DNA from: a virus
Taxonomy: Duplodnaviria; Caudoviricetes
Length of the DNA stretch: 25,340 nt
Virus record (IMG/VR): IMGVR_UViG_3300021791_000009
Coordinates: 1-25,340 of that record
Strand: one strand, 5' to 3'
Numbering within the stretch: the stretch's first letter is position 1; each line of letters opens with the position of its first letter. Below are positions 3,431-15,968 of the stretch, one piece after another. The notes below the pieces were generated by a model. The model did not search any database, was not told where the DNA came from, and saw only the letters and a program-made list of their open reading frames with translations. The position numbers and the translations under genes were made by a program.

Positions 3431-3638
3431 GGGGGACGACGGTCAGGTTTGGAGGTGTATAGACTCCCAAACCACTAGGCTGTCCAAGATAGAGGACATC
3501 ATCTGGAAGGGTAACGGTGACAGCCTGACGACACAGGTTGTGAAGCTGAGGACAGAACTAAGGACACTCGCCGTGGTGGCGACACTGCTGATACCTGTTG
3601 TTATGAAGGCTCTAGACCTATGGTTAGAAAAATCCTAG
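3351..3638 (+). CDS. Coiled-coil protein with C-terminal transmembrane helix (holin-like?)
   Basis: Heptad-like N-terminus and a single TM segment LAVVATLLIPVVM. Confidence 0.5.
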   Translation: MQRTQMEDLERRVILLEEKAKSELGDEGDDGQVWRCIDSQTTRLSKIEDIIWKGNGDSLTTQVVKLRTELRTLAVVATLLIPVVMKALDLWLEKS

Positions 3639-4504
3639 CACTGCTGTTGCTGCCACTTCTTACCCTAGGCTCGGAGCGGGATCAGGATTCACGCCCGTCG
3701 TACTACAACGCCACGGTTAAGATCGGCGGCTGCACAGGGGTCATCATCAAGACTGGACCAGAGGTGTCTGTTGGCATCTCCGCACAGCACTGCACCCCAG
3801 AGGTCGGTGCAATCACCAGCTTCACGAACCCTGATGGTACTGGCGGATACGCTAGGTGGGTGTCCGAGGATACTTCTAGCGACCTGTCTCTATTCAAGGT
3901 GTGGTCCAAGGACACCAAGCGAGTGATGGCGGCTGTTATGCCGGACAAGGAGAAGATCGCCAAGGAGTGTGAAGGGTGGGGCTACCCGAAGGGCAGGGGG
4001 CCAAGGTGGAAAAAACTCGAGTACGAGGGCAAGTTCCACATCACAAGCCTGAAAGCCGAGAGGTTCCAGTTCAGGGTCACGGACGGCGACTTCAATAACG
4101 GTGACTCCGGTGGTGGCGTCTATTGCAACGGCAAGCTAATTGGAATAACTTCCCACGGGTCGGAAAAACATAAGCACCTGTTTTCATGCACCAAGTCGCA
4201 GCTGAACGCTTTCCTGAAAAAGAACTCTGACAAGCTGTCAGCCGGTGAAGTAGAATGGGACGGGAGCAGGGTCCCGCCTCTCGACTCGGATAAAGATAGG
4301 ACCATTGCCTTGAAGGGGGTGATCGAAAGACTATCTAAGATGGAGAGCGAAAACGAAAAGCTGAGAGAGATAGTTCGCCGGATTGCGAACACGCCGACAA
4401 GGGTTCAGATACTGGACCCCGTCAGTGGGAAGGTTTTAGCAGACGAGTCCTATCCGTTAGGGACCCCAATTAGGCTACTGTTGCCAGAAATCAGGAGAAA
4501 GTGA
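3620..4504 (+). CDS. Secreted trypsin-like (S1) serine protease
   Basis: Signal peptide; catalytic triad motifs SAQHC, DLSL, GDSGGG; C-terminal coiled coil. Confidence 0.85.
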   Translation: MVRKILALLLLPLLTLGSERDQDSRPSYYNATVKIGGCTGVIIKTGPEVSVGISAQHCTPEVGAITSFTNPDGTGGYARWVSEDTSSDLSLFKVWSKDTKRVMAAVMPDKEKIAKECEGWGYPKGRGPRWKKLEYEGKFHITSLKAERFQFRVTDGDFNNGDSGGGVYCNGKLIGITSHGSEKHKHLFSCTKSQLNAFLKKNSDKLSAGEVEWDGSRVPPLDSDKDRTIALKGVIERLSKMESENEKLREIVRRIANTPTRVQILDPVSGKVLADESYPLGTPIRLLLPEIRRK

Positions 4505-6653: not shown

Positions 6654-6695
6654 AAAAAAAAGGCCCCAACGAGGGATTACCTCGCTGGGGCCTTG
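6654..6695 (-). terminator. Intrinsic terminator of the minus-strand early operon
   Basis: AAGGCCCCAGCGAGG-TAATC-CCTCGTTGGGGCCTT continuing into a T8 tract, immediately after the stop at 6698. Confidence 0.85.
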
Positions 6696-9427: not shown

Positions 9428-9499
9428 GGAGCATTGGTCGACTTACGCCTCTCGGCTGCGAGTGCCAGCATCGCCACGTGGCGGCTGCTCCGTGATGCC
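9428..9499 (-). ncRNA. HDV-like self-cleaving ribozyme (Rz8)
   Basis: P1 GGCATC/GATGCT, P2 GGAGCA/TGCTCC, P3 GCC/GGC, L3 GCCACGT, P1.1 GG, P4 with GCC-GAGA-GGC, J4/2 CCAA. Confidence 0.8.
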
Positions 9500-9526
9500 T
9501 GCCCCCTTGCGGGGGCGTGAAGTTAG

Positions 9527-10612
9527 TTACGCAGCCATGGCGATCTTCCGCCATTCGCTGGGAGTCGAGTCGACCAGCCGACCACCGAACTGTTCAAGCT
9601 CAGTGGCTCTGTCGTAAGACTCCCGATTCTCAGCAGCACGGGTGATGGCGTTTGCCATACCCCACTGGCTGAGGTCGCCGCCAGCAATCAGGTTGGACAT
9701 CACGTCGTCGGTTTCGTCCTCGGACAATCCGAAGCGACGTTGCACAACCTCAATCGCCTTCTGGGGTTTCCCCTCAATGCGACGGTCGGTAGTCTCACGA
9801 AGCTGGTCGAGCCTCTCCTCCCAGCTACTCTGGTCAAAGATAGCGTCGACTGCGTCCCTGATTTTTGCCCAGAAGGCTGCGTCATCGAGCTTCCGGGTGG
9901 AATCCTTGTAGAACTCCTGAGCAGCATCGACCGCGCCGATGCCCGTACTACGTCCAAGGTGGGTCTTGCGAACCGATGTTGCCTGAACCATCCCGTTCGT
10001 GCAGACGAGCCGATAAAGAAACTCGTCAATCCTCAGGGATCCCTGTCCGACCTCACTGTTGGACACAACAATCCCGCCCTGAACCGTGTCGCCAACGGTG
10101 ACATCGCCAACCAACCTCGGGCTTGTGGCCTTGAGGTAGAGGCGTGACTCCGTTAGCTCGCACGACTTCATTTCGAGATCGCTGTCTTGGAACGCTGGCA
10201 TTATCGCGCCAAGCAGTTCGTAGTTGTCCAGAGGACGGTAGCGATCAGAGAGGAACGCACGAACCGTGTTGGTTCTGGCGTCGGTTCGGACAAGACGCTT
10301 CTTCCCGCCATCATCATTCCACCAGTGGTTGATGTTGGTGGCGAGAAGACTCGGGCACTCGGCCCGCATCCTGTCGTAGTACGCCTTTGGAATCTTCGCA
10401 GCGGCAGCGATCTGCCCGTGGGCGAGATCAGTTGCCCAGTGGGGCGGCAGGTCATCCGAGATGTCGAATAACACGCCACCTTGATGCACAGGAAATGGTT
10501 CCCGTGCGGCGTCGGCTTCCATTGCTCTGGTGTTGACCACAAAGTCCTTCCCGTTGTCCCGCAACGCTTGGACCTCTTGGGCAATCTCAGGCATATTACG
10601 TCCCAACTTCAT
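9527..10612 (-). CDS. DUF932-domain phage protein
   Basis: FLSDRYRPLDN, SNSEVGQGS and RLVCTNGM motifs. Confidence 0.8.
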   Translation of the reverse strand: MKLGRNMPEIAQEVQALRDNGKDFVVNTRAMEADAAREPFPVHQGGVLFDISDDLPPHWATDLAHGQIAAAAKIPKAYYDRMRAECPSLLATNINHWWNDDGGKKRLVRTDARTNTVRAFLSDRYRPLDNYELLGAIMPAFQDSDLEMKSCELTESRLYLKATSPRLVGDVTVGDTVQGGIVVSNSEVGQGSLRIDEFLYRLVCTNGMVQATSVRKTHLGRSTGIGAVDAAQEFYKDSTRKLDDAAFWAKIRDAVDAIFDQSSWEERLDQLRETTDRRIEGKPQKAIEVVQRRFGLSEDETDDVMSNLIAGGDLSQWGMANAITRAAENRESYDRATELEQFGGRLVDSTPSEWRKIAMAA

Positions 10613-10680
10613 AAGTCTCTCCTTTCGAGAGTGGTGAGGGGGATAACCTGCCCCCTCTACAGGTGCCAGCTATTACTGGC

Positions 10681-10759
10681 TGAGAGCCTCAGCTTAGGCC
10701 GTCATGGTTGTCACTCGGGCCGCACAACACCACCACTTGACGGTGGCTCTCATGGTGTC
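10681..10759 (-). ncRNA. HDV-like ribozyme, CPEB3-like 1-bp P1.1 type (Rz7)
   Basis: P1 GACACC/GGTGTT, P2 TGAGAGCC/GGCTCTCA, P3 ACC/GGT, L3 GTCAAGT, GT, J4/2 CTGA. Confidence 0.75.
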
Positions 10760-10760
10760 T

Positions 10761-11089
10761 GACGAGTGGGCGGTAAACGACGCCCGACCTGTAGATAACC
10801 CACAGACATCGGCGGTTCCACCGCCTGCTGCTGCTAGCAGGGCCTCTACTGAGAACGGAAGACCGCATGACCCTCGAGGGACGTGAAGGGACCTGTCGCA
10901 GTAGTAATGCGGTAGCTGGAGCAGTGAGTAAGAGCGTGTGTCATCCGTGGTCACCTAGGCTCACACGGCGAGGGAAACGTCTACTGCACTACCAGCCCTA
11001 TCCGATTCTAAAGGAGGGAGGTATGTCTCGTTTCGGAGTCAATATAGTCTCATGGTTCTCAATCGGGCGGCGATTACCGCCCACTCATC
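10761..11089 (-). ncRNA. Candidate ~330-nt structured ncRNA closed by a long terminal stem
   Basis: GATGAGTGGGCGGTAA (11089-11074) pairs with TTACCGCCCACTCGTC (10776-10761); many nested stems; ends 1 nt before the Rz7 cleavage site. Confidence 0.6.
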
Positions 11090-11106
11090 CTTTTGTTTAT
11101 AAGGGC

Positions 11107-11224
11107 AGAGAGGAGAGTGCAGCGAGGCTTCACCCTCGGCCCGTTCTCACTTCGAGAAGGTAGTGCGGCTCGTTTTCCGCACGATTTTCACCCTCGGTCA
11201 CGCACTCGCTGCACTCAATCTCTC
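11107..11224 (-). ncRNA. Candidate multibranch RNA with two CCGAGGGTGAA repeats
   Basis: 12-bp perfect stem 11115-11126/11205-11216 enclosing two hairpins and the 11-nt repeat at 11129-11139 and 11187-11197. Confidence 0.5.
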
Positions 11225-11272
11225 GTTCCTACACTATGTATCGACACACAGTGCAGGGGACTTTACTTGTTT

Positions 11273-11488
11273 CTACTCAGTTTCGACTTTTTCTTGGGTT
11301 GGCTCGAAGCCAAAGTAAAACCGTGGCATGTGTTGGAACTCAAGGGAGCCGATCACATTGTCGGCCTTCCTCGTGACCACGACGAATGGGGCAGCGAACT
11401 GCCGCACCTCGTAGTCCTCTTGGAGTTCCTTCGTATCCCACACACGGCCTGCCAATCCTTCTAGCTGTTCCCTGTTCAAGTCTTGCAT
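11273..11488 (-). CDS. Conserved small phage protein
   Basis: RBS AAAGGAG; 71 aa with WDTKELQEDYEV..FAAPFVVV.RK.D...GSLEFQH.PRFY. Confidence 0.75.
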   Translation of the reverse strand: MQDLNREQLEGLAGRVWDTKELQEDYEVRQFAAPFVVVTRKADNVIGSLEFQHMPRFYFGFEPTQEKVETE

Positions 11489-11521
11489 CTGAGTCTCTCC
11501 TTTGTGAAGGGAAGTGAAACA

Positions 11522-11574
11522 GGAGCATTGGTTGGTTATCCAGCACTGCCTCGTGGCGGCTGCTCCGTAGTGCC
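11522..11574 (-). ncRNA. Minimal (P4-less) HDV-like ribozyme (Rz6)
   Basis: 53 nt: P1 GGCACT/AGTGCT, P2 GGAGCA/TGCTCC, P3 GCC/GGC, L3 GCCACGA, GG, linker ATAACCAA, J4/2 CCAA. Confidence 0.8.
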
Positions 11575-11691
11575 TAAGGCGTGACCTGAGGGCTGGGTTT
11601 TCTGGCTGGCATTGAGCAACAGAGCTTTGCCGCCGTCAACTTGCTTCACCTCGTCCCACCAGTTCGTGATGGTAGGTCAAGCCTCATCTTG

Positions 11692-12018
11692 CTACTTGCC
11701 GTCAATCCGATTGATCTCGAAAGGCTTGCTACCCACCTTCGGGTAGACCAGCGTTCCGTCAACGTTACTGACCTGAGTGTCCTCGGACACAACCCACCAT
11801 ATCTGGGCCTCCTTGACCTTCAAGGCTCGCCCCCTGATCTTCTTGAGTTCGGCCTTAGCCTCCTCAACTGTGTCGCCAATACCGTAGTAGTTGGCGACCA
11901 TGATCAGGATCTTGGTGAAGTTGTGTCTCATGGGAATGCGGTCTTCCGCATCCACAGGCGCACCAACAGGGTCCGCTTCGTAACCCGTGTAGGGCTTTGA
12001 TCTCTTGATTGCGTCCAT
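11692..12018 (-). CDS. Hypothetical protein
   Basis: RBS GAGGAG, 108 aa. Confidence 0.7.
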   Translation of the reverse strand: MDAIKRSKPYTGYEADPVGAPVDAEDRIPMRHNFTKILIMVANYYGIGDTVEEAKAELKKIRGRALKVKEAQIWWVVSEDTQVSNVDGTLVYPKVGSKPFEINRIDGK

Positions 12019-12044
12019 AGCTTCTCTCCTCTTGAGAAAGTGAT

Positions 12045-12107
12045 GAGCATTCGTTCTCGGCTCACAGGCCGTCCAACACCGCCACGGGGAGGCTGCTCTT
12101 TGGTGTC
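12045..12107 (-). ncRNA. HDV-like ribozyme (Rz5)
   Basis: P1 GACACC/GGTGTT, P2 GAGCA/TGCTC, P3 GCC/GGC, L3 TCCCCGT, GG, P4 CGGC/GCCG, J4/2 CGAA; close to canonical HDV. Confidence 0.88.
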
Positions 12108-12150
12108 ATCCCTACCCCATGTATCGACACATGGGGCAGGTCACTTGAGA

Positions 12151-12477
12151 CTATTCTTCATCAAGTAATGGACATCCGTACTCGTCAACCACGGTGACCC
12201 CGCGATCCCTGAGTATCCGACAGGCTTGCTCGCTCGCCCTCGCAAAAGCACTCCTTGCCACACGCTGGGGAGTAGGCTCCCTCAGGAGTCGGTGGAGGTG
12301 CAGTGCTATCAGCGTTCCACAAGTCTTGTCGCAAAACTCAATGACCTTCAGGTCACCATCGCTGCCGCCCTCGTGCGTTAGCTTGTCGCTAAGCGAGGAC
12401 TTCCTTGGTTCGCCACACCAACTGGCGAAGCGAACAGGATCAGCAACGGTAATCCATCGTCTAATGATGTCAAACAT
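12151..12477 (-). CDS. Hypothetical protein
   Basis: ATG (MFDIIRRW) after GAGGAG; the longer ORF-track start runs through the ribozyme. Confidence 0.6.
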   Translation of the reverse strand: MFDIIRRWITVADPVRFASWCGEPRKSSLSDKLTHEGGSDGDLKVIEFCDKTCGTLIALHLHRLLREPTPQRVARSAFARASEQACRILRDRGVTVVDEYGCPLLDEE

Positions 12478-12505
12478 ATCTCTGTCTCCTCTTGGGGAAG
12501 TGATT

Positions 12506-12576
12506 GAGACGTTAGTCGGCTTACGCCTTGCGGCCGCGAGTGCCAGCACCACCACGTGGAGGTGTCTCTTGGTGCC
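12506..12576 (-). ncRNA. HDV-like ribozyme (Rz4)
   Basis: P1 GGCACC/GGTGCT, P2 GAGAC/GTCTC, P3 ACC/GGT, L3 TCCACGT, GG, P4 with GCC-GCAA-GGC, J4/2 CTAA. Confidence 0.88.
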
Positions 12577-12624
12577 TGAACAGGGGCAAACCTGATGGTA
12601 GTAAGGTCCGCCCCTGTCCGTTCT

Positions 12625-13002
12625 CTACTCCCTGTTCTCAAGTAGGTCGTCATACAATCCAGCCGATGCGTACGCATCGTAGATAGTGTCGAGTTGGGTC
12701 TTGAGTGTCTGACTTAGATTGGTTGTCATGCCGTATTTATGCCCGCTGGTGTCGTAGCAGGTCAATTCACCCTCAACCATTTCACAGGTGAGGCTTGCCG
12801 AAAATGTGTCGGACCCGATGAATGACCCACGAGCGAACTCTCTCGAAACGAGCAACCCGTCGTCAGAATGCTCAATCTCCCAATCTCTCCACGTCACGGT
12901 GTCGTTTGCCACCGGAACCAATGTGCATCCTTCTCGATAGCCACTGACGACTTCGAGATGGTTCTGCGCTTTGGTCTTGGCGTTACTCGGCAAGAATTTC
13001 AT
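12625..13002 (-). CDS. Hypothetical protein
   Basis: RBS GAGAGGA, 125 aa. Confidence 0.7.
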   Translation of the reverse strand: MKFLPSNAKTKAQNHLEVVSGYREGCTLVPVANDTVTWRDWEIEHSDDGLLVSREFARGSFIGSDTFSASLTCEMVEGELTCYDTSGHKYGMTTNLSQTLKTQLDTIYDAYASAGLYDDLLENRE

Positions 13003-13031
13003 GATGTGTCCTCTCGTAAGGGGAAGTGAAT

Positions 13032-13108
13032 GACTCGTCAGCTTAGGCCGTCGTAGCTGTCGCTCGGGCCGTACAGCAGCACCACCGTGAAGGTGAGTCG
13101 TCGCTGCC
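13032..13108 (-). ncRNA. HDV-like ribozyme, CPEB3-like type (Rz3)
   Basis: P1 GGCAGC/GCTGCT, P2 GACTC/GAGTC, P3 ACC/GGT, L3 TTCACGGT, GT, J4/2 CTGA. Confidence 0.75.
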
Positions 13109-13144
13109 TGAGGGGCTGATGGTAGTCAGCCCCTCTGTTCTTCT

Positions 13145-13402
13145 CTACTCGGGGAACTTGATATGACGTCCGATCCAATCGTCTATTGACGATGAGGATA
13201 TCTTCGCGAGAGCCTGATCGGCAGCCTGAAATAACGGGATTACGGCAAGGACCTCGGGGCCGCCCATCACCTCGACAACCGCGTTGTGCAGTTCCCGTTC
13301 AGTGATGATGCCCTTGTTGTATAGCCCCTGCTGTTTCTCCAGCACCTCAATGGCCCTGTCAAGTTGTTCAATCTTGATCACAGGCTGTTCTCGGTGGTTC
13401 AT
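13145..13402 (-). CDS. Hypothetical protein
   Basis: ATG (MNHREQP) after AAAAGGAG; 85 aa, helical. Confidence 0.65.
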   Translation of the reverse strand: MNHREQPVIKIEQLDRAIEVLEKQQGLYNKGIITERELHNAVVEVMGGPEVLAVIPLFQAADQALAKISSSSIDDWIGRHIKFPE

Positions 13403-13429
13403 GTCTAGTCTCCTTTTGGGGAAGTGAAT

Positions 13430-13510
13430 CGAACCGCTCAGCTTAGGCCGTCTTAGCTGTCGCTCAGGCCGTACAACAGCCACCACTTGAAGGCGGGTTC
13501 GCTGGCTGTC
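13430..13510 (-). ncRNA. HDV-like ribozyme, CPEB3-like type (Rz2)
   Basis: 7-bp P1 GACAGCC/GGCTGTT, P2 CGAACC/GGTTCG, P3 GCC/GGT, L3 TTCAAGT, GT, J4/2 CTGA. Confidence 0.78.
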
Positions 13511-13535
13511 TGTTGGGCGTCCCTGCCCACCAGTG

Positions 13536-13721
13536 CTAGGCACTGGCTCCTAGATTTGCTAGATGCTTGCAACAGGTGAAGCCCTGCCGGAACTTACGAA
13601 ACCGCTGCGAAAAGCACGAGCAGTCAAGCTGCCCGTTTGGCTTCCGCGTGATGTCGTAGTGCCTGTCACCTGACGATGACCGCACGGTTGCGATGACTTC
13701 ACGTTTCTTACGTTGCTTCAT
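13536..13721 (-). CDS. SWIM zinc-finger protein
   Basis: SSSGD.HY.I and CSC-x-CKHL SWIM motif. Confidence 0.75.
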   Translation of the reverse strand: MKQRKKREVIATVRSSSGDRHYDITRKPNGQLDCSCFSQRFRKFRQGFTCCKHLANLGASA

Positions 13722-13749
13722 AGCTCTCTCTCCGTGGGAAGTGTTAAGG

Positions 13750-13820
13750 AACCTGCCTCATCAGGCCGCAGGCGGTTAGTCCTGCGACAAGCCCCACTGA
13801 GGGGGCTTTCGGCTAGCTCG
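13750..13820 (-). ncRNA. Type II hammerhead ribozyme
   Basis: GCC-GAAA-GCCCC(CTCAGT)GGGGC-TT|GTCGCAGG(ACTAACCG)CCTGCGGC-CTGATGA-GGC. Complete catalytic core; predicted cut between 13789 and 13788. Confidence 0.85.
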
Positions 13821-14151
13821 CAATCGTCGTGGTTTGAGTTGTCTGACATACACTCTGAATATCGAAGGGCGGGTTGTTTTTCTTCTTGCGTCGTCGTCGC
13901 TTCTTGCTCTTGCTCACGACGGGCTTCGGCGGGGTGTCGTTCTTCTTCTTCGGAGCAGGCGGGGGGCTTGGCTTGCGGCCGTTCTTACTGGGCCGCGTTG
14001 TGCGGTGAGTCTTCACCACACGCTTCGCCTTCCGCTTTGCCGATCTAGATTTACGAGCACCCTTGTTGATCCCATCGAAAGCAGTATCAAGCAGCCAGAT
14101 TGCTACAAGAAGCAAAACAAGACCGATCTCGATAATGATTAGCGTTATCAT
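13813..14151 (-). CDS. N-terminally membrane-anchored, highly basic protein
   Basis: Hydrophobic N-terminal 22 aa, then a Lys/Arg/Pro-rich tail; first gene of the early operon. Confidence 0.6.
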   Translation of the reverse strand: MITLIIIEIGLVLLLVAIWLLDTAFDGINKGARKSRSAKRKAKRVVKTHRTTRPSKNGRKPSPPPAPKKKNDTPPKPVVSKSKKRRRRKKKNNPPFDIQSVCQTTQTTTIAS

Positions 14152-14182
14152 TTTCTCGTACCTCTCAGAAGTGTGAACTCGT

Positions 14183-14257
14183 GTTGATTAGCTTAGGCCG
14201 TCATCGGTGTCCCTCAGGCCGAACAGCAGCGCCACTAGAAGGCTCAACTTTGCTGCC
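14183..14257 (-). ncRNA. HDV-like ribozyme, CPEB3-like type (Rz1)
   Basis: P1 GGCAGC/GCTGCT, P2 GTTGA/TCAAC, P3 GCC/GGC, L3 TTCTAGT, GT, J4/2 CTAA. Confidence 0.78.
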
Positions 14258-14556
14258 GGACCACTGGGTTGGTACAATGTCTAAGACATCGAGCAAGCCC
14301 AGTGGCCTCACTTCGTAAGGAATTGAGATTGAGACACGTTCGGTGGTTACGATCCCACAGGCTCTACAGCCCAGCCGCTTTGAAAAATCCATTCAAGGCT
14401 CCGAACGCTTTGGCTTCAACCCGCCCGTATCCAGTTGGATGCTGTGTAGCATGGGTCACAGAGGCCCGCCTCCATGCTGCGGACCTGCTTTGAGTAAAGC
14501 CAACGGTAGCGACATCCCATCATGGGGGCTTTCCGCCTCTTCGCGATCCGTCGCTG
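14258..14556 (-). ncRNA. Candidate ~300-nt structured leader RNA
   Basis: Consecutive multibranch stems (AGCGAC/GTCGCT; TTGGCTTTA/TGAAGCCAA; CGTTCGG/CCGAACG; CCACTGGG/CCCAGTGG) between the promoter and Rz1; no convincing ORF. Confidence 0.5.
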
Positions 14557-14562
14557 TAATAG

Positions 14563-14881: not shown

Positions 14882-15130
14882 ATGGCCCGCTGGTTCGTTC
14901 TTACGTTTGGTGGTATTGCCTTCCTGCTGGCCGCTTTGGTGGGCCAGCTAGTGGCTGTAGTGGTATGTTCCGAGGGGGACCCAACCCTTATCCTGTGTTC
15001 CATTGTCGTCGGCAACAGTGCTGCTACGACGATGCTAGTATTCTGGTGCCACTATGCGGATCGCATGTTGCGAGCCGAGTATTGGCGAGAACTGGGCGGA
15101 AAGCCCAACAGGAGGAAGAAGGATGCGTAG
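14882..15130 (+). CDS. Small two-TM membrane protein
   Basis: RBS GGAGG, two hydrophobic segments, basic C-terminus (holin-like topology). Confidence 0.6.
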   Translation: MARWFVLTFGGIAFLLAALVGQLVAVVVCSEGDPTLILCSIVVGNSAATTMLVFWCHYADRMLRAEYWRELGGKPNRRKKDA

Positions 15131-15968
15131 GGACCCGTCACTCAGGTTGGTCGAGGTATTGGCCGCATTGGCAGCTGTTTCGGTAATGGCTGCTTATACG
15201 ATGGCCCACGACCAGAAGCTGCCGAAGGATGTTCCGGCTTACATGCAGGACATCAGCGTAACGATCAGGGCGGGTTTCTCGGAAGGCAGCGGCGTTGCCA
15301 TCAGTAGAGGCGATCAGACGTTCGTATGGACGGCGGGGCACGTGGTGGATGGGTTGCGTAAGACGCGGAAGGTTACGGACCCGAAGACGGGGACCCAGCG
15401 GACTATTATCGAGTTCGACGACGCCAAGATTCTAAAGACGCTTGTGGAGGGCGGCAGGACGGTTGGCAGGCTGGAGATGGACGCCGAGGTGATTCGTTAC
15501 TCGGACGCCGACAACGGCCACGATCTCGCCATCCTTCGTGTCCGCAAGAAGGGCTTTATCAAGATCAGCGCGATCTTCTACGACGAGGGAAAGCCGCCCA
15601 AGCTGGGAACCCGCCTCTTTCACGTGGGCTCCCTACTTGGCCAAGTGGGCTCGAACAGCATGACTTCAGGTATCGTCAGTCAGCACGGTCGCTTGATCGG
15701 CAAGGTAACCTTCGACCAGACGACGGTAACGGCCTTCCCCGGAAGCTCGGGTGGCGGCGTATACTTGACTGACGGTCGATATGTAGGGATGCTTGTCCGT
15801 GGGGCCGGTGAGGGTTTCAACCTGATCGTCCCTGTTCGCAGGATGCGTAAATGGGCCAAGAACGCCAACGTCCTCTGGGCACTTGACCCTCGAGTAAAGA
15901 TGCCCTCTGAGGATGACATGAAGAAGATTCCTGTCGAGGACATCGGGGCTGACTTTGGAGGGAAGTAA
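15123..15968 (+). CDS. Secreted trypsin-like (S1) serine protease
   Basis: GSGV, WTAGHV, DLAIL and PGSSGGG motifs; signal-like N-terminus from ATG 15123. Confidence 0.88.
   Translation: MRRDPSLRLVEVLAALAAVSVMAAYTMAHDQKLPKDVPAYMQDISVTIRAGFSEGSGVAISRGDQTFVWTAGHVVDGLRKTRKVTDPKTGTQRTIIEFDDAKILKTLVEGGRTVGRLEMDAEVIRYSDADNGHDLAILRVRKKGFIKISAIFYDEGKPPKLGTRLFHVGSLLGQVGSNSMTSGIVSQHGRLIGKVTFDQTTVTAFPGSSGGGVYLTDGRYVGMLVRGAGEGFNLIVPVRRMRKWAKNANVLWALDPRVKMPSEDDMKKIPVEDIGADFGGK

What the first reader, a model, noticed from the sequence alone, without database searches (positions are those of the whole stretch)
9428..14257. Array of eight HDV-like ribozymes punctuating a phage early operon
Seen: eight minus-strand intergenic elements (9428-9499, 10681-10759, 11522-11574, 12045-12107, 12506-12576, 13032-13108, 13430-13510, 14183-14257) all fit the HDV nested double pseudoknot. 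P1 opens with a G1-U wobble and covaries (GGCATC/GATGCT, GGCACT/AGTGCT, GACACC/GGTGTT, GGCAGC/GCTGCT). P2 sequences differ but stay paired, P3 is 3 bp, L3 is (T/G)YC..GW, P1.1 is GG or GT, J4/2 is C-N-R-A with the catalytic C, and the -1 base is never G. Known: these are the hallmarks of HDV/CPEB3-type ribozymes; the phage HDV-like ribozymes I know of (theta) are mostly tied to tRNA 3' ends. Inference: here they precede protein genes, about one per gene, and would dice the polycistron. Caveats: most P1 helices are 6 bp rather than 7, and three copies have G at the first L3 position.
Basis: partly seen in the sequence, partly recalled or inferred. Interest (0 to 1): 0.95.

Follow-up and report, generated by a model that had tools for sequence, protein, structure and literature searches.

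The report
Ribozyme-punctuated gene array, marine phage
Each of the first nine genes in one transcript of an uncultured marine phage is preceded by a predicted self-cutting RNA (eight of the hepatitis-delta type, one hammerhead), which probably chops the message into single-gene pieces; the folds and the idea are known, but this dense, shuffled array is a good place to test what phage ribozymes are for.

Summary
Observation confirmed. All eight elements fit the HDV double pseudoknot at the stated coordinates (1 hit in 500 shuffles; 0 in 575 kb of unrelated loci), and 52 distinct copies from related contigs covary. Relatives carry up to ten copies with the genes reshuffled, and one gene is preceded by an HDV fold, a hammerhead or nothing. 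The 6-bp P1 is normal; the G at L3 position 1 in three copies is a real caveat (470-fold slower in HDV). Best reading: co-transcriptional cutting into self-contained single-gene mRNAs. Cleavage is untested and the host unknown. The core is the published theta-ribozyme core, and clustered hammerheads flanking phage genes were described and shown to cut in 2011; this scan also noted similar HDV arrays on other DNA. New here: the P4 kink-turn, recurring G20 variants and the swappable-cassette layout. New variant of a known kind; interest 0.55.

The parts
14183..14257 (-). HDV-like ribozyme 1; G1 14257, catalytic C 14191, U20; kink-turn P4 14222-14192; precedes 112-aa gene (14151-13813)
13747..13814 (-). 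Type II hammerhead; intact CUGAUGA/GAAA core, predicted cut between 13789 and 13788 (C-U-U), loop I can pair with the 3' tail; precedes 61-aa SWIM-like gene (13721-13536)
   Evidence: RF02276 32.1 bits, below gathering 37; stems 8/3/6 bp; cut site; SWIM lead
13430..13510 (-). HDV-like ribozyme 2; 7-bp P1, bulged P2, catalytic C 13441, U20; kink-turn P4 13472-13442; precedes 85-aa gene (13402-13145)
13032..13108 (-). HDV-like ribozyme 3; 8-nt L3, 5-nt J4/2, catalytic C 13041, U20; kink-turn P4 13072-13042; precedes 125-aa gene (13002-12625)
12506..12576 (-). HDV-like ribozyme 4; 5-nt J4/2, catalytic C 12515, U20; GNRA-capped P4; precedes 108-aa gene (12477-12151)
12045..12107 (-). HDV-like ribozyme 5; short P4, catalytic C 12053, U20; precedes 108-aa gene (12018-11692)
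11522..11574 (-). HDV-like element 6; minimal (no P4), catalytic C 11531, G20 variant; precedes 71-aa gene (11488-11273)
10681..10759 (-). HDV-like element 7; catalytic C 10692, G20 variant; kink-turn P4 10723-10693; precedes DUF932 gene (10612-9527)
9428..9499 (-). HDV-like element 8; catalytic C 9437, G20 variant; GNRA-capped P4; precedes 30-aa gene (9395-9303) and the ribozyme-free distal genes
14259..14307 (-). Hairpin ending 1 nt before G1 of ribozyme 1 (3' end of the leader)
   Evidence: compensatory changes
13110..13135 (-). Hairpin ending 1 nt before G1 of ribozyme 3
12578..12620 (-). Hairpin ending 1 nt before G1 of ribozyme 4
12111..12140 (-). Hairpin ending 3 nt before G1 of ribozyme 5; travels with the upstream gene among relatives
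9501..9516 (-). GCAA-capped hairpin ending 1 nt before G1 of element 8
10760..11270 (-). About 510-nt structured non-coding stretch carried on the RNA piece between elements 6 and 7; its closing stem ends 1 nt before G1 10759
   Evidence: z -7.3; core shared with L002 and L004; no Rfam hit
14258..14560 (-). Conserved structured leader that the first cut would release; transcription start not determined
6660..6694 (-). Intrinsic-terminator-like hairpin with T run closing the leftward operon
   Evidence: same place in L002, L003, L004

Best explanation
The elements are cis-acting self-cleaving ribozymes of the HDV fold (theta-type core, with or without P4) that cut the nascent leftward transcript just 5' of G1. 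With the hammerhead they divide its promoter-proximal part into a leader and single-gene mRNAs of about 280-1260 nt. Each piece starts with a 5'-OH inside a folded ribozyme, has its SD and start codon 26-40 nt downstream, and ends in a hairpin plus cyclic phosphate. This makes translation and decay of each gene independent of its neighbours, which suits a region where genes are swapped. Shown: fold, covariation, placement, junction layout, gene shuffling. Inferred from known HDV chemistry: cleavage site and products. Inferred only: in vivo cutting and the benefit (insulation and end protection). The five U20 copies and the hammerhead are probably active; the three G20 copies may be slow.
For: Eight of eight parse, far above chance. 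In 52 distinct copies from 13 loci G1-U is 52 of 52 though G-C was allowed, and L3 positions 2-3 match P1.1 in 52 of 52 (TC with GT 33, CC with GG 19) though the scan did not couple them. On a MAFFT alignment of 26 copies, 7 of 16 pairs change on both sides, 0 of 500 shuffles as high. All 65 hits in 13 loci lie on one strand, that of the operon, 0 antisense. The same P3-L3 cores occur in the theta table, four theta ribozymes cut in vitro. A stem ends within 4 nt of G1 in 41 of 52 copies against 337 of 1321 random positions; P2 end to ATG is 26-40 nt in 40 of 48. No T run follows the hairpins and promoter-like sites are 1 against 3.3 expected, so the junctions are not terminators or evident sigma-70 promoters. 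The SWIM-like gene is preceded by a hammerhead here, an HDV fold in L004, L007, L008, L119, and none in L002/L005 and L054. Clustered hammerheads in prophage polycistrons cut as predicted (PMC3088659).
Against: No cleavage or RNA-end data: the one RNA run gave two contigs, over the non-coding stretch. Three of eight copies lack U20; G23/G28 in antigenomic HDV is 470-fold slower (PMC3386971). J1/2 is 1-3 nt, and 0-1 nt linkers crippled a mosquito HDV-like ribozyme (PMC4908430). Some junctions lose the ribozyme in relatives (SWIM-like gene in L002/L005 and L054; DUF932 in L004 and L094), and a complete relative with 62% TerL identity has no model hit and one hammerhead, so cutting at every gene is not essential. 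Only 5 of 8 window copies pass the strict hairpin test, and the hairpin could just help ribozyme folding. Whether a 5'-OH end stabilises or destabilises RNA depends on the host's nucleases (own knowledge; glmS cleavage leads to decay), and the host is unknown. Copies are related, so counts are not independent events.
Confidence: 0.68

Rival explanations
1. The repeats matter mainly as DNA recombination sites or as selfish copies; the ribozyme fold is spread by gene conversion and cutting is neutral or tolerated.
For: Gene order differs among relatives in the ribozyme part while the distal block is collinear in 5 of 5 contigs; SD region and 3' hairpin travel with their gene while the ribozyme subtype changes. 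Joints in a DNA run fall near element borders (weak: likeness 88, repeats).
Against: Copies are only 52% identical per column yet keep pairing and the catalytic C, which selection for homology would not do; a hammerhead with no sequence likeness fills one slot; three ribozyme-flanked genes (F, G, H) are not shuffled.
Confidence: 0.1
2. Cutting serves to shed Rho or stalled complexes from the nascent RNA, preventing polarity across many short, poorly adapted genes; the ends of the pieces are incidental.
For: Ribozymes fill the promoter-proximal junctions of one long operon with a single terminator; a co-transcriptional cut would detach upstream RNA from polymerase (inference).
Against: No data; does not need a hairpin before each cut; no paper found with these terms; host Rho status unknown.
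Confidence: 0.09
3. Cutting speeds decay and shuts early genes off, as with glmS, possibly gated by a protein that binds the P4 kink-turn.
For: glmS precedent; kink-turn sequence invariant in the subgroup; kink-turns bind L7Ae-family proteins.
Against: Hairpins at each new 3' end and a folded 5' end look protective; 3b is C in 24 of 25 kink-turns, the class that folds in metal ions without protein; P4 is lost or replaced in half of the copies.
Confidence: 0.08
4. The pieces (5'-OH, 2',3'-cyclic phosphate) are ligated into circular or re-ordered mRNAs by an RtcB-type ligase.
For: The ends are RtcB substrates (own knowledge); RtcB rang in 10 of 14 control genomes.
Against: No RtcB in 0 of 8 phage records and no RNA_ligase in 0 of 5 (seven of the eight are fragments); Perreault et al. 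looked for such products with hammerheads and found none; G1 is held in P1.
Confidence: 0.04

Closest known systems
Theta ribozymes and minimal HDV-like ribozymes of Caudoviricetes (Kienbeck et al. 2024, PMC10879173; drz-Mtgn-1)
   Same: Same P3-L3-P1.1-J4/2 core, short J1/2, optional fifth J4/2 base, 6-bp P1 as in drz-Mtgn-1 (my parse of the sequence printed), intergenic and sense to genes like the 526 non-tRNA theta hits.
   Different: No tRNA in the window; 7 of 8 have P4, four with a kink-turn sequence; marine rather than gut; dense one-per-gene array; G20 variants.
Clustered hammerhead ribozymes flanking prophage genes (Perreault et al. 2011, PMC3088659)
   Same: Several ribozymes flank single genes, gene identities vary, processing into single-gene mRNAs proposed; the window's hammerhead is the type II pseudoknot form described there.
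   Different: Here the array is mostly HDV-type, 9-10 long, with a fixed hairpin-cut-ribozyme-SD layout; their tested arrays were triples.
HDV and CPEB3 ribozymes; HDV-F-prausnitzii (RF02682); Ackermannviridae HDV ribozyme (PMC13635239)
   Same: Double pseudoknot, catalytic C, G25, one- or two-pair P1.1 (U-U form as in CPEB3).
   Different: Below Rfam cut-offs; P4 type differs (loop E in fungal variants; 'k-turn' does not occur in PMC13635239).
Synthetic ribozyme insulators (RiboJ) and RNase III processing of the T7 early transcript
   Same: A cut plus a standard 5' structure before the SD makes expression independent of upstream context (insulator use seen as a passage; T7 from own knowledge).
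   Different: Natural, ribozyme-encoded and repeated at each gene; function here untested.

Membership tests
HDV-like ribozyme class | Nested double pseudoknot P1, P2, P3, P1.1 (P4 optional) with covariation | tested here: met
   8 of 8 parse; pair tables
HDV-like ribozyme class | P1 of 6-7 bp opening with G1-U or G1-C; non-G at -1 | tested here: met
   8 of 8; 6-7 bp is usual per PMC4908430
HDV-like ribozyme class | Catalytic C in J4/2 (C-N-R-A) | tested here: met
   8 of 8; A, U, G controls give 0 new hits
HDV-like ribozyme class | U20-G25 pair in L3, copies 14257, 13510, 13108, 12576, 12107 | tested here: met
   signature per PMC3386971
HDV-like ribozyme class | U20-G25 pair in L3, copies 11574, 10759, 9499 | tested here: not met
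   G20-G25; 9 of 52 copies share it. Filed as variants that probably work like HDV, not as canonical members
HDV-like ribozyme class | Mg2+-dependent self-cleavage at G1, lost in C-to-U mutant | not testable with these tools
   needs in vitro transcription
Theta ribozymes | Minimal fold without P4 | tested here: not met
   only 11574 (1 of 8) lacks P4; their descriptor is a picture I could not read
Theta ribozymes | Cleavage site within 5 nt of a tRNA 3' end (tRNA-associated subgroup) | tested here: not met
   0 tRNA genes in the window
Theta ribozymes | Shared P3-L3 core sequence | tested here: met
   two cores found in 1,592 and 516 places of their supplementary table
Rfam RF02682 and RF00622 | Score above gathering threshold | tested here: not met
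   best 12.5 bits of 44; no match
Type II hammerhead | Core CUGANGA, GAAA, NUH with stems I and III closed, and loop I pseudoknot with the 3' tail | tested here: met
   the L174 homologue changes both sides of the pseudoknot (my reading of the alignment)
Type II hammerhead | Rfam RF02276 gathering score 37 | tested here: inconclusive
   32.1 bits, E 1.3e-6 in this genome; homologue in G006 scores 48.5
Standard kink-turn | Duplex with 3-nt bulge followed by G-A and A-G pairs | tested here: met
   4 of 8 window copies; 25 of 52 copies fit the strict pattern, C-stem paired 25 of 25 with four pair types; definition PMC4382518
Standard kink-turn | Kinked fold in Mg2+ or on L7Ae binding | not testable with these tools
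   C-stem is only 2 bp plus a 4-nt loop, so the fold needs testing

The most novel reading that the evidence does not exclude
The region is a natural plug-and-play cassette array insulated at the RNA level: each gene travels with its own SD and 3' hairpin, recombination in or beside the repeated ribozymes reshuffles the genes, and self-cleavage gives each a standard mRNA wherever it lands. Fast U20 copies at proximal junctions and slow G20 copies at distal ones set a gradient of processing, and the P4 kink-turn, not found in my searches as part of an HDV-like ribozyme, is a handle for a protein that times it.
Probability: 0.3. Interest if true: 0.78.

Novelty: new variant of a known kind. Interest (0 to 1): 0.55.

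Why it matters
What self-cleaving ribozymes do in bacteria and phages is still largely open; a 2019 review names glmS as the only well-understood bacterial case and polycistron processing as an unproven suggestion. This operon offers nine sites in 5 kb, natural swaps (HDV fold, hammerhead or nothing before the same gene), natural active-site variants and single-base off switches, so the processing hypothesis can be tested in vitro and in a laboratory strain. It also supplies compact candidate ribozymes with a kink-turn in P4 and a recurring G20 variant, which bear on HDV catalysis and on insulator design. It is not a new fold or a new idea.

Tried and rejected
Rfam scans found no HDV-family hit. 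Internal promoters or terminators at the junctions: not supported. A 16-base probe of the 510-nt stretch gave 23 viral loci, 20 by chance, with no Rfam hit in 12 of them. Prokaryote genomes: no pattern match and no TerL relative, so no host; protein searches named none; no cultured-phage match to one junction. Phage RNA ligase: none. RNA evidence: one metatranscriptome with a small share of words; contigs cannot show ends. Leader as a trans antisense RNA to the TCACTTC-SD region: it pairs better than shuffles (0-1 of 300 in six contigs) but was picked after the fact, ranks only 390 of 8400 windows here, and its conserved bases are paired inside the leader; kept as a weak lead only. One search used a mis-indexed structure string and is void; one search replaces it, and there P3 is shifted by MAFFT in 7 of 26 rows. 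P2 was not; its pair table is paired by construction. Literature: ten searches listed no paper on HDV-like arrays in phage operons or a kink-turn in HDV P4; I saw 20 of 30 listings and opened none of them. Webb 2009, Riccitelli 2014, Roth 2014 and Weinberg 2015 were not opened and may hold such cases. Four probes of the G20 minimal copy were absent from the readable theta supplements, but one file was too large, one unreadable, and their descriptor may exclude G20.


Full report
SETTING. The window is a whole 25,340-base virus record, 57% complete. It encodes a terminase large subunit, a podovirus-type major capsid protein, a resolvase and nucleases on the plus strand. From about 14,150 to 6,700 a minus-strand operon of 14 genes runs to one terminator-like hairpin at 6694-6660. 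Most of its genes are small and unnamed; three match DUF932, Phage_L5_gp82 and GP88 and one has a SWIM lead. 'Early' is an inference from this content (L5 gp82 and gp88 lying in an early region is recalled). Runs that hold the stretch are labelled marine or seawater where labelled; the best holder may be the source sample. The host is unknown.

OBSERVATION. A first strict version found 5 of 8; allowing one extra J4/2 base and a P2 bulge found the rest. The final version gives 1 hit in 500 shuffles, 0 new hits with the catalytic C changed, and 0 in 134 unrelated loci of 575 kb. A covariance model built from 26 kink-turn copies, four of them from the window, ranks the other four window copies next. 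Rfam has no HDV-family hit over cut-off, which reflects narrow models and is not a test of the fold.

COVARIATION. Protein and pattern searches brought in related contigs. Thirteen loci (window included; L002 and L005 carry identical copies) gave 65 hits, all on one strand, 52 distinct. Features the scan did not impose: G1-U 52 of 52; P1 positions 2-7 all Watson-Crick with 2-4 pair types; L3 positions 2-3 matched to P1.1 in 52 of 52. On an unguided alignment of 26 copies, 96.6% of cells pair and 7 of 16 pairs change on both sides, above all 500 shuffles and all slid controls; relatedness inflates such counts. L018 and L019, from larger unrelated-looking phages, hold one and at least two similar elements and were left out of these counts.

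(1) A type II hammerhead at 13747-13814 fills the one junction among the first nine that lacks an HDV fold; a relative with 62% TerL identity has a homologue over Rfam's cut-off. The last five genes have neither fold. (2) P4 of four copies reads as a standard kink-turn: 3-nt bulge, tandem G-A/A-G, a 2-bp stem paired in 25 of 25 strict matches with four pair types, 3b = C in 24 of 25, the class that folds in metal ions alone (PMC4382518, first quarter of the text read). (3) A fixed layout: a stem ends within 4 nt of G1 in 41 of 52 copies against 26% of random positions (5 of 8 in the window), and the start codon lies 26-40 nt after P2 in 40 of 48 (three exceptions are the DUF932 slot, five are over 100 nt, and the one of these in the window, 13510, was a missed start at 13402). 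(4) Shuffling: window order A B C D E F G H, L004 N D S E T B U F G H with ten ribozymes, L008 N C B U E G; the distal block is collinear in 5 of 5 contigs. SD region and 3' hairpin follow their gene, the ribozyme subtype does not. Gene B has a hammerhead, an HDV fold or nothing before it; gene H has none in L004 and L094.

THE CAVEATS. Six-pair P1 is usual (PMC4908430, first quarter read), and drz-Mtgn-1 as printed in the theta methods parses with one. A 5-nt J4/2 was active in a theta ribozyme. G at L3 position 1 is a real departure: U20-G25 is a class signature and the G-G version of antigenomic HDV is active but 470-fold slower (PMC3386971, passages); G25 matters about 1000-fold (PMC13635239, introduction and passages). 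G20 occurs in 9 of 52 copies, only in the three distal slots, beside U20 versions of the same slots in other contigs. That fits tolerated or tuned slow cutting, or decay; inheritance by slot means few independent origins.

MECHANISM. Known HDV chemistry predicts cuts 5' of each G1, leaving a cyclic phosphate upstream and a 5'-OH on the ribozyme. The operon would give a leader, eight pieces of about 280-1260 nt and a distal piece of about 2.8 kb (hammerhead site corrected to 13788). Each piece has a folded 5' end, a freed SD and a 3' hairpin. I put 0.68 on processing into self-contained mRNAs as the main role. The hairpin may instead, or also, keep upstream RNA from misfolding the ribozyme (a paper title in a reference list). 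Rivals are recombination repeats (0.10), relief of polarity (0.09), timed decay (0.08) and ligation (0.04). Nothing here shows cleavage: the one RNA run gave two contigs over the non-coding stretch.

COMPARISON. The core is that of theta ribozymes (PMC10879173, parts 1-4 of 7 and supplement searches), which already include 526 non-tRNA hits of unknown role; these copies are not theta members by the minimal-fold or tRNA tests. The arrangement and the dicing proposal are published for hammerheads, with cleavage of three 2-kb native polycistrons (PMC3088659, section 6 and passages). PMC6765202 (section 13 and passages) calls the role unproven. PMC5640933, PMC9901934, PMC5737381 and bioRxiv 2024.07.19.604288 were seen as passages only. 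This scan's earlier notes report HDV-like arrays and mixed-class arrays in other phages; I did not check their DNA, and they are not support, but they lower the sense of rarity. Ten literature searches listed no paper on HDV arrays in phage operons or a P4 kink-turn; key subscription papers were not opened, and unread supplements could hold such cases.

VERDICT. Real, well supported by structure, untested by activity. Five canonical HDV-like ribozymes, three G20 variants and one hammerhead punctuate a shuffled phage operon. New variant of a known kind; interest 0.55.

Noticed in passing
window 11270-10760 (-): About 510-nt strongly folded non-coding stretch (z -7.3) with no Rfam hit; a conserved closing stem holds an interior module shared with L002 and L004, while L003 and L094 carry a different module. 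The only RNA-run contigs lie over it. Candidate new ncRNA whose 3' end element 7 would make.
   Followed up: partly
window 14560-14258 (-): Conserved structured leader (20 of 83 predicted pairs with a compensatory change); contains a segment complementary to the TCACTTC-SD region of the cassette genes, weak lead for a switch or antisense role.
   Followed up: partly
window about 8325-8270 (-): tRNA-like T-arm and acceptor minihelix before the gp82-like gene in 5 of 5 contigs, ending near CCA in four relatives; may be a host RNase P or Z site at a ribozyme-free junction.
   Followed up: partly
window about 8805-8765 and 7520-7480 (-): A shared 13-bp hairpin with one bulge, a GACA or GNRA loop and a 3' CCAC/T tail at the ribozyme-free distal junctions of five contigs; possible RNase III-type processing site.
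   Followed up: partly
window 3832, 5924, 6640, 9408, 11667, 12593, 13117, 21400 (all -): Polar octamer TACCATCA, 8 copies all on the minus strand, also inside plus-strand genes; relatives use TACGGTCA in the same hairpin loops. Chi-like or operator site, unexplained.
   Followed up: partly
window about 10665-10630 (-): Possible H-type pseudoknot between element 7 and the DUF932 SD, kept in L002, L004 and L094 even where the ribozyme is lost (seen).
   Followed up: no
L002 2505-2580, L008 7150-7230 (oriented), L054, L119: HDV-like variant with covarying P1 but a 24-25-nt L3 holding a hairpin and C at L3 position 1, after the SWIM-like gene; missed by the descriptor; activity unknown.
   Followed up: partly
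L174 4700-3420 (-): The distant complete relative repeats a hairpin plus a TGATAGGACTCAGGC motif at three junctions in place of HDV folds.
   Followed up: no
L019 2314-3375 (+); L018 5987-6039 (+): Similar minimal HDV-like elements in two larger phages, three within about 1 kb in L019, showing the core is not confined to this clade.
   Followed up: partly
window 3620-4504 and 15054-15968 (+): Two trypsin-like protease genes, unusual in a phage of this size.
   Followed up: no
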